Shown here one piece after another: positions 39,001 to 42,000 of a DNA stretch of 64,000 nt (positions within the stretch are counted from its first letter, which is position 1; every line of letters starts with the position of its first letter). The position numbers are program-made. Source of the stretch: Escherichia coli (GTDB lineage Bacteria > Pseudomonadota > Gammaproteobacteria > Enterobacterales > Enterobacteriaceae); assembly GCF_009931435.1 (NCBI RefSeq), contig NZ_CP043414.1; one strand, given 5' to 3'.

Positions 39001-42000
39001 ATTCAGCGCGAGGCCGTAGTGCTGGTCCAGCAGTCGGGTGAGCAGTGTCTGCCAGATGGTGACGGGAGACGGGCAGTGCGATGCCTCCCGTATGTGTGTG
39101 TCGGGTAATGTTTTCATACTGAAGATTTTCCTGATATGCAGAGATGAAAAATGGGAAAGTGGCGTGATGAAAGCACCTGGCTGGAGCAGAGGGTTATCTT
39201 GGTGGTTTACGTTTTTGTTTCGGGCGTCGGATAAACAGCCAGATAAACGTAACCACAGGAGCCGAAGGTGTCGGCTTCGCAGGTCAGTCCTTTCGCATAC
39301 AGCGTGACGGTATGCTGATAGCGAGGGCTGAGTTCACCACTGGTGAGCATGAGCTCCAGTTGTTTCATCAGCAGCGGAAAGGCCTGGTCCAGGTGGTACG
39401 AATCCGCGTCGCTGAACCGGCCTCTGATACCGGCGCGGTCTGCAAGGTAATGCAAGCGGTTACCCTCCTGCACCAGACGTGCCCCGAAACAGGGCATCAC
39501 GGTGCAGGGTAGCCCCCACCAGGGGCGGTTGTTGTTGTCGGGATGCGTTGTCCCGGGCAGTGTGTCTGACACGATAAAGTCCTCACTGAAATCAGTTAAG
39601 AATAGTTCGATGGTGGCGATAATTCGGCTCATCAGAATGCCCTTCCTGACTTAGTTCAGGGTGACGCTCATCAGCCGGACATACGGGCCAAAACTGTCCT
39701 TACGGCGTTCAGCAAACACGGCAAGAACGCCGGGAATATCCTGCACTTCACGACCGGTATACGCTTCAGCGCTGCCGTGCCAGCGGTACTTACCGGTACA
39801 GAACGGAAAAAGACGGGATGCAGGATGCTGTTGGTGAATACGCATGGCTTCACCACGGGTGATAATTTTCATGATGGGATACCTCTGAAGACAGAAGATA
39901 AAAGTGAAAACAAGTGTGATGTAGTTGTGACGGGTTAAAGCAGACCGTGTTCCGCAAAGGAGAAAACCTGGTTGCCACCGACTATCAGATGGTCCGGCAC
40001 CCGGATATCCACCAGGGCCAGTGCCTGTACCAGACGTTCGGTGATAAGCCGGTCTGCCTTACTGGGTGTGACTTCACCGGACGGGTGATTGTGTGCCAGC
40101 ACCACGGCAGCGGCATTGTGATACAGGGCGCGTTTAATCACTTCCCGGGGATGGACTTCCGTGCGGTTGATGGTGCCGGTGAAGAGGGTTTCACCGGCAA
40201 TCAGCTGATTCTGGTTGTTCAGATACAGCACCCGGAATTCTTCACGCTCCAGTCCCGCCATGTTCAGAATCAGCCATTCCCGTGCCGCATGCGTGGAGGT
40301 GAAGGCCACGCCGGGTTCATGAAGATGGCGGTCCAGGGTTTTCAGGGCCCGCTGAATGAGGCTGCGCTCACCGGGCGTCATTTCTCCGGGCAGAAAGGAA
40401 ATCTGTTGCATTGTTCCGGCCCCTTTCAGTCAATGATGCGCATAATGGCGCTGCATTCCGGATGCTGCAGGGCGTAATCCCGCAACCGATAATAATGGAC
40501 CGTCATGGCATAACACTCCGTACGACAGGCATGATGGCTGTACGTCATCAGACAGGCTGCAATGCCGGCGGCTTCCGGGCTCATTTCAGCGCGGTTACCG
40601 TTCATGGCATTGAACAGTATCCAGGTTTCTCCATCATCTTCATCCGGTTCAGGTGCTATAAATGCGCCACCGTTGTTCAGGGTGTACAGATTCCAGATAC
40701 CCCCGCAGTAGTCTTCACACAGACGGTCCATCCAGCCGAAGACACGGGGCTCCAGGGTCACCCACTGTGGAATGAGGCCAAAGTGCTGCGGCCAGAAGCT
40801 GATGCGCTGTTCATCAGGGACGGGAGTGGCAACCAGTTGAGACTGGTTATTCCCTGATGCAGTAGTTACGGAAACAGAAGGTGTGGTGGAGCTATGCGAA
40901 AAGGTTGTCATGAGATGATTCCTTATAAAAAGTAAATGAATGGAAGAATGCATGGGGACTGGTACAGACGTGAGTCAGGGCTGCACTTTCAGGGAAACAG
41001 CATCAGCGCATGCTCTCCAGCAGCGTTTCTGCCATCACCCACAACGCCCGGTTGAGCTTAATGTCGGTATCGATGCTGTGAATGGCCCGGGTATGGATAC
41101 GTTTTCCTCTGGCACTGCGACCGGAAATCCCGCCTTTCAGCATATTTTCCTGGATGGTCTGATAAGCACTCCACAGGTCCTTACCGTAATCCTCCCGGCG
41201 TCGTGGCGTCAGAATGTCGGTAGTGGTGACGGGCTGATGTTCATCACCATAACGGTAAGTCAGCGCCGCCTGTGCCAGCGCCTGGCGTGCCGGTGGCGGC
41301 AGGACCAGCGACTGCATGGCATCACGCTTTTCCTCAATCCGGTCAAACACGCCCACCACTTCGTAAGCACCTTCAATCACCCTGTCCACCACGTTTCCCC
41401 GGTGGGGCACCCGGACTTCTCCCAGCGACTGACCGCAGACCAAGCCATTGGTGCAGATGGCACGAAAATATCCGGGTAACATCTGGTAGCTGGATGAACC
41501 GTCATGGGAGTTGAGCAGAATAATTTCAGGCACATGCTGACCGGTTATCTGTCCGGCCCGCCGCAGACGCAGCATATGTTTGGTATATTCCCGGCGGCTC
41601 TGGTCGCGCACACGGGTCTGGCAGGCGAAGAACGGCTGAAAGCCTTCCCGCTGCAGATTTTCCAGGACGGTGATGGTGGGAATGTACGCATACCGTTCAC
41701 TGCGGGAGGTGTGCCGGTCTTCTCCAAAAATACTCGGGACGTGGTACATCAGTTCTTCGCGTGTCAGTGGGCGCTCCCGACGGATCTGATTTACATGACC
41801 AAAACGACTGGCTAATTGCATACTTTGCTCCTTATGAATGAATTAGCGGTATAAACGAAAAGGCCGCGTCTCCCGGAGAAGACGCGGCCTGATGGATGAA
41901 ATGAAGACGTTTATTGCCTGAGAATTCCCTCACTGGCGAGATACGAATTTAGCTGTTTTCCGGCATCAGGTTCAAAATTCCAGCACCGCCAGCGTAGCTG

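What the first reader, a model, noticed from the sequence alone, without database searches (positions are those of the whole stretch)
39570..39632. CbeA-like antitoxin probably initiates at GTG
Homology begins at SDTLPG, preceded by GTG (39570-39572) with GAGGA 7 nt upstream; the longer ATG ORF adds 20 non-conserved residues.
Basis: seen in the sequence. Interest (0 to 1): 0.2.

Follow-up and report, generated by a model that had tools for sequence, protein, structure and literature searches.

The report
Antitoxin gene start codon is GTG

Summary
On the minus strand a 141-codon ATG ORF (39632..39207) contains a GTG (39572..39570) with GAGGA 7 nt upstream.

The GTG is the conserved start:
- RefSeq annotates the identical locus from this GTG.
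- K-12 cbeA and the solved YeeU structures begin here.
- In 91 scored loci the start is ATG, TTG or GTG. It sits at the homologous position in all but one allele with a weakened Shine-Dalgarno (SD) site. An in-frame stop usually lies about 7–8 codons upstream.

The extension is an accident. The upstream ATG and its SD are the start of a 214-aa gene (DUF8835) that sits between yeeT and yeeU in about 1,900 E. coli genomes. Here about 636 bp of it are deleted. In K-12-type copies the remnant ATG is out of frame. In the window's small clade a 1-nt loss in a T-run fuses it to cbeA. The 20 codons change almost only non-synonymously (7:1, against 28:36 in the core).

One caveat: SD pairing is equal at both starts, so some translation of a longer isoform cannot be excluded.

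Verdict: interpretation supported, already known, low interest.

The parts
39207..39572 (-). CbeA/YeeU-family antitoxin CDS from the GTG start (121 aa plus stop)
   Evidence: PF06154 at 179 bits. 88% identical to K-12 CbeA. Matches PDB 2H28 and 2INW from residue 2. Same coordinates as the RefSeq CDS WP_021562928.1 in the identical FORC 064 locus.
39570..39572 (-). GTG start codon, the conserved initiation site
   Evidence: The GTG is invariant in the five-sequence alignment. GTG in 16 of 18 scored E. coli-type copies and ATG at the same position in L007; L088 also has GTG here but was scored at its upstream ATG. ATG or TTG at the SD-backed start in all 73 scored loci of other genera.
39580..39584 (-). 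Shine-Dalgarno GAGGA, 7 nt before the GTG
   Evidence: Kept as GAGGA, AAGGA or AGGGA in E. coli-type alleles. Anti-SD duplex -6.5 kcal/mol.
39589..39591 (-). T-run TTT. It is TTTT in K-12 and most alleles; the 1-nt loss puts the upstream ATG in frame with cbeA.
   Evidence: Alignments. ATG-to-GTG distance is 60 nt here, in L003 and in L088, against 61 nt (+1 frame) in L002, L005, L006, L009, L086, L087, L089, L090 and L091. L004 is also 61 nt but has AAG instead of ATG.
39573..39611 (-). Codons 8-20 of the 'extension': former non-coding DNA between the DUF8835 gene and yeeU
   Evidence: blastn: window 39607..39500 aligns to L094 1023-1134, downstream of the 214-aa gene's stop at L094 1009.
39612..39632 (-). 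Remnant 5' end (ATG plus about 6 codons, MSRIIAT) of a deleted 214-aa DUF8835 gene. The deletion junction lies at about 39611-39607.
   Evidence: blastn: window 39700..39611 aligns to L094 301-386, which includes the annotated start (L094 365) of the 214-aa CDS MSRIITTT.... The gene is near full-length in 1,943 of 5,426 E. coli genomes.
39641..39647 (-). AGGAAGG, the SD-like motif of the lost DUF8835 gene, 8 nt before the remnant ATG
   Evidence: Anti-SD duplex -7.0 kcal/mol.
39651..39872 (-). yeeT-like DUF987 gene, immediately upstream
   Evidence: PF06174 at 135.6 bits. RefSeq CDS.
38740..39117 (-). CbtA-family toxin gene, 89 nt downstream of the antitoxin
   Evidence: PF06755 at 201.5 bits. 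85% identical to K-12 CbtA.
39935..40411 (-). RadC-like JAB gene (yeeS-like), context gene of the island
   Evidence: PF04002 at 153.6 bits. RefSeq CDS.

Best explanation
The gene is an ordinary CbeA/YeeU-family type IV antitoxin of a CP4-44-like island in E. coli. Its gene order is RadC, DUF987, antitoxin, CbtA toxin. The conserved translation start is the GTG at 39572..39570, served by the GAGGA SD, and it gives a 121-aa protein.

The 20 upstream in-frame codons are not part of the ancestral protein. They are a chimera made by two mutations.

1. A deletion of about 636 bp removed almost all of a 214-aa DUF8835 gene that lay between yeeT and yeeU. It left that gene's SD, its ATG and about 7 codons, joined to the non-coding leader of yeeU.
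2. A later 1-nt loss in a T-run (TTTT to TTT) put the remnant ATG in the cbeA frame.

What is shown here: the coordinates, the homology, the deletion scar, the frame difference between alleles, the start-codon conservation and the substitution pattern.

What is inferred: that ribosomes mainly use the GTG in this allele.

What comes from the literature on K-12 CbeA: that the protein counteracts CbtA by stabilising FtsZ and MreB polymers.
For: (1) RefSeq annotates the 100%-identical locus from the GTG. It does the same in L003 and L088, alleles where the long ORF is open.

(2) K-12 cbeA starts at the homologous GTG. Its upstream ATG is in the +1 frame and ends at TAA after 16 codons.

(3) Start-codon signature. 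Of 18 scored E. coli-type copies, 16 have GTG and L007 has ATG at the same position. L088 also has GTG there but was scored at its upstream ATG. In 73 loci of other genera the SD-backed start, at the homologous position by eye, is ATG (53) or TTG (20), never another Leu or Val codon.

(4) The median open frame upstream of the start is 7-8 codons. In other genera the DUF987 gene ends 20-31 nt before the start, or a RadC-like gene ends 10 nt before it. There is no room for the extension.

(5) Deletion scar. Window 39700..39611 equals the L094 yeeT end plus the first 22 nt of the 214-aa gene. Window 39607 onward equals non-coding DNA 3' of that gene. The gene is widespread in E. coli.

(6) In the five in-frame alleles the extension shows 7 non-synonymous and 1 synonymous change, against 28 and 36 in the core (Fisher p=0.026). 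Pairwise pN/pS is 1 or more in the extension and 0.16-0.45 in the core.

(7) PDB YeeU chains 2H28 and 2INW, and Pfam PF06154, do not include the extension.
Against: In this allele the ATG is in frame. It has an SD-like motif with pairing energy equal to or better than the GTG's (-7.0 against -6.5 kcal/mol). It is the inherited start site of a real gene, and it lies 18 nt after the yeeT stop. Initiation there is therefore plausible, and elongating ribosomes would read through the GTG.

In a sister allele (L088) the GTG's SD is degraded (GAGAA, -2.7) while the ATG has AGGAG (-7.4).

Gene callers other than PGAP have called the 140-144-aa form several hundred times (clusters P0001 with 353 members and P0003 with 274).

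No initiation-site profiling or N-terminal proteomics entry for this gene was found. The substitution test rests on 8 changes.
Confidence: 0.85

Rival explanations
1. Dual initiation. Both the remnant ATG and the GTG are used in this allele. The cell then makes the canonical 121-aa antitoxin and an appreciable amount of a 141-aa isoform with an N-terminal extension.
For: The ATG has an intact inherited RBS from the DUF8835 gene. SD pairing is equal at the two sites. The ATG is close to the yeeT stop (18 nt). The family's N-terminus is variable in length and lies outside the Pfam domain, so an extension may be tolerated.
Against: There is no protein-level constraint on the extension. The predicted unpaired probability of the SD-to-start region is lower at the ATG than at the GTG (0.33 against 0.44). 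There is no experimental evidence either way.
Confidence: 0.25
2. The ATG is the main or only start in this allele. The start has shifted upstream and the 141-aa protein is the functional antitoxin.
For: ATG is a stronger initiator than GTG in general. The sister allele L088 has lost the GTG's SD and gained AGGAG before the ATG, as expected if the start were migrating in this clade. Several gene callers chose the long form.
Against: The window keeps an intact GAGGA at optimal spacing before the GTG. The extension accumulates 7 non-synonymous and 1 synonymous change. Its second half is ex-intergenic sequence. Every other branch of the family starts at the GTG-homologous position. RefSeq chooses the GTG.
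Confidence: 0.07
3. The remnant short ORF is a functional leader. In K-12-type alleles the 16-codon ORF (MSRIIATTGPFL[AT]DFL*) ends inside the cbeA SD. Its translation would relay ribosomes from yeeT to cbeA by translational coupling. The window's allele would have destroyed this relay by fusing the ORF to cbeA.
For: The ATG is kept in 9 of 10 out-of-frame alleles. The ORF's stop appears as TGA, TAA or TAG, never as a sense codon, 10 nt before the GTG.
Against: L004 has AAG instead of ATG. Substitutions in the short ORF are 3 synonymous and 4 non-synonymous, which is not distinguishable from the other two frames or from neutrality. The stop variants are also SD variants. Other genera lack the ORF entirely. 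It has a sufficient explanation as a deletion scar. It is not listed among novel small ORFs in the held supplement.
Confidence: 0.08

Closest known systems
E. coli K-12 CbeA (YeeU, b2004), type IV antitoxin of the CP4-44 cryptic prophage; PDB 2H28, and 2INW from Shigella
   Same: 88% amino-acid identity over the whole 121-aa GTG form. Same GTG start codon with the same TTTATC spacer. Same neighbours: RadC-like, DUF987, CbtA toxin, yeeW-like. The reported mechanism of K-12 CbeA is to stabilise FtsZ and MreB bundles rather than to bind the toxin (PMC5624674, citing Masuda et al. 2012).
   Different: The window's copy lies in a different island, next to setC and yicL. It has a 1-aa shorter N-terminal variable stretch. 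It has TTT instead of TTTT upstream, so the remnant ATG is in frame here but out of frame in K-12. K-12 also lacks 6 nt of the remnant SD region.
yeeT - DUF8835 gene - yeeU arrangement (for example E. coli APEC O2-211 WP_000086744.1, and a frameshifted copy in E. coli B)
   Same: The window keeps that gene's SD, its ATG and its first roughly 22 nt, plus the non-coding stretch that follows its stop.
   Different: About 636 bp, nearly the whole gene, are deleted in the window. The intact gene is found in 1,943 of 5,426 E. coli genomes. It has no match in the Pfam copy used here.
YfjZ and YafW, the other K-12 paralogues of the PF06154 family
   Same: Same fold family (PDB 2JN7 and 2EA9 match residues 37-137). 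Each is paired with a CbtA-family toxin.
   Different: They have shorter N-termini, starting about 4 residues before the WGL motif, and much lower identity.

Membership tests
CbeA/YeeU/YfjZ antitoxin family (Pfam PF06154) | Significant match to the family profile over its full length | tested here: met
   179.1 bits against a cut-off of 27; profile positions 1-100 of 101; residues 37-136 of the long ORF.
CbeA/YeeU/YfjZ antitoxin family (Pfam PF06154) | Close sequence relationship to structurally solved members | tested here: met
   2INW E=4.5e-73 and 2H28 E=7.7e-72. Both alignments start at residue 22 of the long ORF, which is residue 2 of the GTG form. 88% identity to K-12 CbeA.
CbeA/YeeU/YfjZ antitoxin family (Pfam PF06154) | Encoded immediately upstream of a CbtA-family toxin gene (PF06755) on the same strand | tested here: met
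   Toxin ORF 39117..38740, 201.5 bits, 89 nt downstream. 85% identical to K-12 CbtA.
CbeA/YeeU/YfjZ antitoxin family (Pfam PF06154) | N-terminus at the family's conserved start position, about 13-19 codons before the WGL motif | tested here: met
   The GTG lies 18 codons before WGL. Homologues start 13-19 codons before it, apart from YfjZ-like short forms at 4-5 codons (and 8-9 in L085). The ATG, at 38 codons, has no counterpart outside one E. coli clade.
CbeA/YeeU/YfjZ antitoxin family (Pfam PF06154) | Neutralises CbtA toxicity by enhancing FtsZ and MreB bundling (type IV mechanism) | not testable with these tools
   Known for K-12 CbeA only (PMC5624674, citing Masuda 2012). Inferred here from 88% identity.
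DUF8835 gene (214 aa, between yeeT and yeeU) | Intact open reading frame of about 645 nt | tested here: not met
   Only the SD, the ATG and about 22 nt remain in the window; about 636 bp are deleted.

The most novel reading that the evidence does not exclude
The start site of the deleted DUF8835 gene is still active. In K-12-type loci it would produce a 16-aa remnant peptide whose termination inside the cbeA SD modulates antitoxin translation. In the window's clade the same site would produce an N-terminally extended antitoxin. The L088-type alleles, with the GTG's SD lost and the ATG's SD improved, would then be caught in the act of moving their start codon. That would be a natural example of a gene capturing the ribosome-binding site of a deleted neighbour.
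Probability: 0.2. Interest if true: 0.3.

Novelty: already known. Interest (0 to 1): 0.1.

Why it matters
It matters little biologically. The GTG start of cbeA/yeeU is already in RefSeq and in the K-12 annotation, and the protein is an ordinary member of a well-studied toxin-antitoxin family.

The practical value is for annotation. Longest-ORF or Prodigal-type calls give 140-144-aa forms (the two largest clusters hold 353 and 274 database sequences), and these should be read as mis-extended. The origin of the extension, a deletion scar plus a 1-nt frameshift, explains why the two kinds of gene call disagree.

It is also a small, clean example of how remnants of a deleted gene can create an apparent N-terminal extension.

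Tried and rejected
- SD strength and local RNA structure as a discriminator. The two sites are equivalent (-6.5 and -7.0 kcal/mol; unpaired probability 0.44 and 0.33), so this gave nothing decisive.
- Promoter scan. This asked whether a promoter between the ATG and the GTG would exclude the ATG from the mRNA. No minus-strand site was found, and the single plus-strand hit is at chance level.
- Rfam search of 38500-40500 at E up to 1: no RNA family.
- Literature. Two searches gave nothing specific on the yeeU start. The held supplements of an E. coli small-ORF ribosome-profiling study and of an N-terminomics study have no entry for cbeA, yeeT, yeeU or cbtA. The retapamulin profiling preprint has no supplement held.
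- NCBIfam and PADLOC: no matches for the antitoxin or the toxin; PADLOC and Pfam: none for the 214-aa protein.
- tblastn matches in other genera that seemed to reach query residues 1-8. These are read-through of open frames with unrelated sequence, in loci where a RadC-like gene precedes the antitoxin. They are not a shared extension.
- The short upstream ORF as a conserved coding leader. It has no codon-level signal.
- Population frequency of the in-frame allele. I did not count it over all 13,244 E. coli places, because the tools list only the best place per record.

Full report
**What is there.**
The finding concerns the minus strand. The longest ORF runs 39632..39207 (ATG, 141 aa).
- GTG at 39572..39570.
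- GAGGA at 39584..39580, with a 7-nt spacer.
- ATG at 39632..39630, which adds exactly 20 residues.

The protein is a clear CbeA/YeeU-family antitoxin:
- Pfam PF06154 scores 179 bits and covers residues 37-136 of the long ORF.
- PDB YeeU chains 2INW and 2H28 align from residue 22 (SDTLPG).
- The GTG form is 88% identical to K-12 CbeA.

The gene sits in the usual island context: RadC-like, DUF987 (yeeT-like), antitoxin, CbtA-family toxin, yeeW-like. The window is E. coli. The region is 100% identical to strain FORC 064.

The yeeT-like stop (39653..39651) lies 18 nt before that ATG. Predicted anti-SD pairing is -7.0 kcal/mol for the ATG and -6.5 for the GTG, and local structure is similar at both. 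Sequence signals in this allele alone therefore do not decide the question.

**Comparative evidence for the GTG.**
RefSeq annotates the identical FORC 064 locus as a 366-nt CDS (WP_021562928.1). It maps exactly to 39572..39207. K-12 cbeA (b2004) starts at the homologous GTG.

I aligned 16 E. coli-type copies.
- In nine copies (L002, L005, L006, L009, L086, L087, L089, L090, L091) the upstream ATG lies 61 nt from the GTG, in the +1 frame. That frame ends at TGA, TAA or TAG after 16 codons.
- In those copies the cbeA frame has a TAA 8 codons before the GTG.
- L004 has the same 61-nt spacing and the same TAA, but carries AAG instead of the ATG.
- L007 has ATG exactly where the others have GTG.
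- Only the window, L003 and L088 have a 60-nt distance and an open frame. The later-fetched L092 and L093 are the same.
- These in-frame alleles share TTT instead of TTTT in a T-run (window 39591..39589), plus two diagnostic substitutions (CGA, ACT). They look like one clade derived from a single 1-nt deletion.

One scan of species-representative genomes gave 80 more loci.
- In the 73 loci of other genera that could be scored, the SD-backed start is ATG (53) or TTG (20). By eye in the N-terminal alignments it sits at the position homologous to the window's GTG.
- The median open frame upstream of that start is 7 codons.
- A codon that is always ATG, GTG or TTG, and never CTG, GTN or another sense codon, behaves as a start codon and not as an internal Val or Leu.
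- In those genera the DUF987 gene ends 20-31 nt before the antitoxin start, or a RadC-like gene ends 10 nt before it. A 20-residue extension has no room there.
- A few tblastn matches seemed to reach back to query residues 1-8. These are open-frame read-through with unrelated sequence.

**Where the extension comes from.**
Some E. coli loci carry about 630 extra bp between yeeT and yeeU. In APEC O2-211 this is an annotated 645-nt CDS of 214 aa that begins MSRIITTT. In E. coli B the same gene is frameshifted. It is near full-length in 1,943 of 5,426 E. coli genomes, and newer annotations call it DUF8835. It has no hit in the Pfam copy used here.

blastn against the APEC O2-211 locus (L094) gives two blocks:
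- Window 39700..39611 matches the yeeT 3' end, the SD and the first 22 nt of the 214-aa gene (90% identity).
- Window 39607..39500 matches the non-coding DNA downstream of that gene's stop, then the SD, the GTG and yeeU (86% identity).

About 636 bp are therefore missing. The window's ATG and AGGAAGG are the start site of the lost gene. Codons 1-7 of the extension (MSRIIAT) are that gene's N-terminus. Codons 8-20 are former intergenic sequence, which includes cbeA's own SD. All scar alleles share the same junction, which fits one deletion event. The in-frame state needed the additional T-run deletion.

**Substitution pattern.**
Among the five in-frame alleles, the 20 extension codons carry 7 non-synonymous changes and 1 synonymous change. 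The core carries 28 and 36 (Fisher p=0.026). Pairwise pN/pS is 1 or more in the extension and 0.16-0.45 in the core. The counts are small, but the direction is what is expected for sequence that is not under protein-level constraint.

**How it most likely works.**
The antitoxin is translated from the GTG using the GAGGA SD. This gives the 121-aa protein that corresponds to the structurally and functionally studied K-12 CbeA. Published work reports that K-12 CbeA counteracts CbtA by stabilising FtsZ and MreB assemblies rather than by binding the toxin (PMC5624674, citing Masuda et al. 2012). That functional step is inferred here from homology.

**What remains open.**
The ATG is an inherited, genuine start site with good SD pairing. 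Some initiation there, and so some 141-aa isoform, is possible in this allele; I put that at about 0.25. In the sister allele L088 the GTG's SD is degraded (GAGAA, -2.7 kcal/mol) while the ATG has AGGAG (-7.4). This hints that the start may be shifting in part of that clade.

The 16-codon remnant ORF in K-12-type alleles could in principle couple translation from yeeT to cbeA. It shows no codon-level conservation (3 synonymous and 4 non-synonymous changes, like the control frames), and one allele has lost its ATG.

No initiation-site profiling or N-terminomics data for this gene were found in the held literature.

**Other checks.**
There is no Rfam family in 38500-40500. There is no minus-strand promoter-like site between the two starts. 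There is no tRNA gene in the window.

**Verdict.**
The GTG start is already the RefSeq and K-12 annotation, so the finding is already known and of low interest. The one addition from this work is the explanation of the long ORF: a deletion scar of the DUF8835 gene fused in frame by a 1-nt deletion. That explains why different gene callers disagree, with 121-122-aa and 140-144-aa database entries for the same alleles.

Noticed in passing
window 38321-38743 (minus strand): A single 140-aa ORF carries a DUF5983 N-terminal domain at residues 4-57. RefSeq splits the same DNA into a partial DUF5983 pseudogene (window 38743..38567) and a separate 65-aa DUF957 CDS (38518..38321). It looks like an in-frame internal deletion that fused two genes, or another start-site ambiguity.
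   Followed up: no
window 40426-40953 (minus strand): The longest ORF of the antirestriction gene is 175 aa (ATG at 40953). RefSeq annotates 161 aa, starting at 40911. This is the same kind of long-ORF against annotated-start difference as in the finding.
   Followed up: no
L088 (E. coli TO124) 350-430; L093: In these in-frame sister alleles the remnant ATG has AGGAG 5 nt upstream (ATGATG). In L088 the SD before the GTG is degraded to GAGAA (-2.7 kcal/mol). This may be a start-codon shift in progress; RefSeq still annotates the GTG.
   Followed up: partly
L094 365-1009 (APEC O2-211); L095 369-1012 (E. coli B): A 214-aa gene of unknown function lies between yeeT and yeeU. It is annotated as hypothetical, as 'antitoxin of toxin-antitoxin stability system', or as DUF8835. 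It is near full-length in 1,943 of 5,426 E. coli genomes and has no hit in the Pfam or PADLOC copies used here. In E. coli B it is frameshifted, and its frame runs open into yeeU for about 250 codons.
   Followed up: partly
one search hits H59-H65 (for example O157:H7 MB9-1); one search hits H33-H38: Other E. coli loci keep only the last roughly 113 nt of the DUF8835 gene (query positions 533-645). The yeeT-yeeU region is also about 87 nt longer than in the window in some genomes. This points to a second, independent partial-deletion class of the same gene.
   Followed up: no
L089, L090, L091 (O157:H7 JEONG-1266, PK-F-10122, SD134209): cbtA is annotated as a frameshifted pseudogene next to cbeA in these genomes. 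cbeA is intact in L089 and L091. In L090 the cbeA frame stops after 19 codons, and RefSeq annotates a shorter 306-nt CDS from a downstream start.
   Followed up: no
L006, L007, L008, L010, L046: Short contigs labelled Lachnospiraceae MAG, Arthrobacter sp. GMC3, Collinsella MAG and Clostridiales MAG carry E. coli-type or enterobacterial yeeU loci at 66-90% identity to the query. These are most likely contamination or mis-binning in those assemblies.
   Followed up: no
window 39596-39623 (plus strand): There is a single sigma-70-like match (TTAAGA, 16 nt, GATAAT) antisense to the extension. One such match is the number expected in shuffled sequence (1.1), so it is probably chance.
   Followed up: yes
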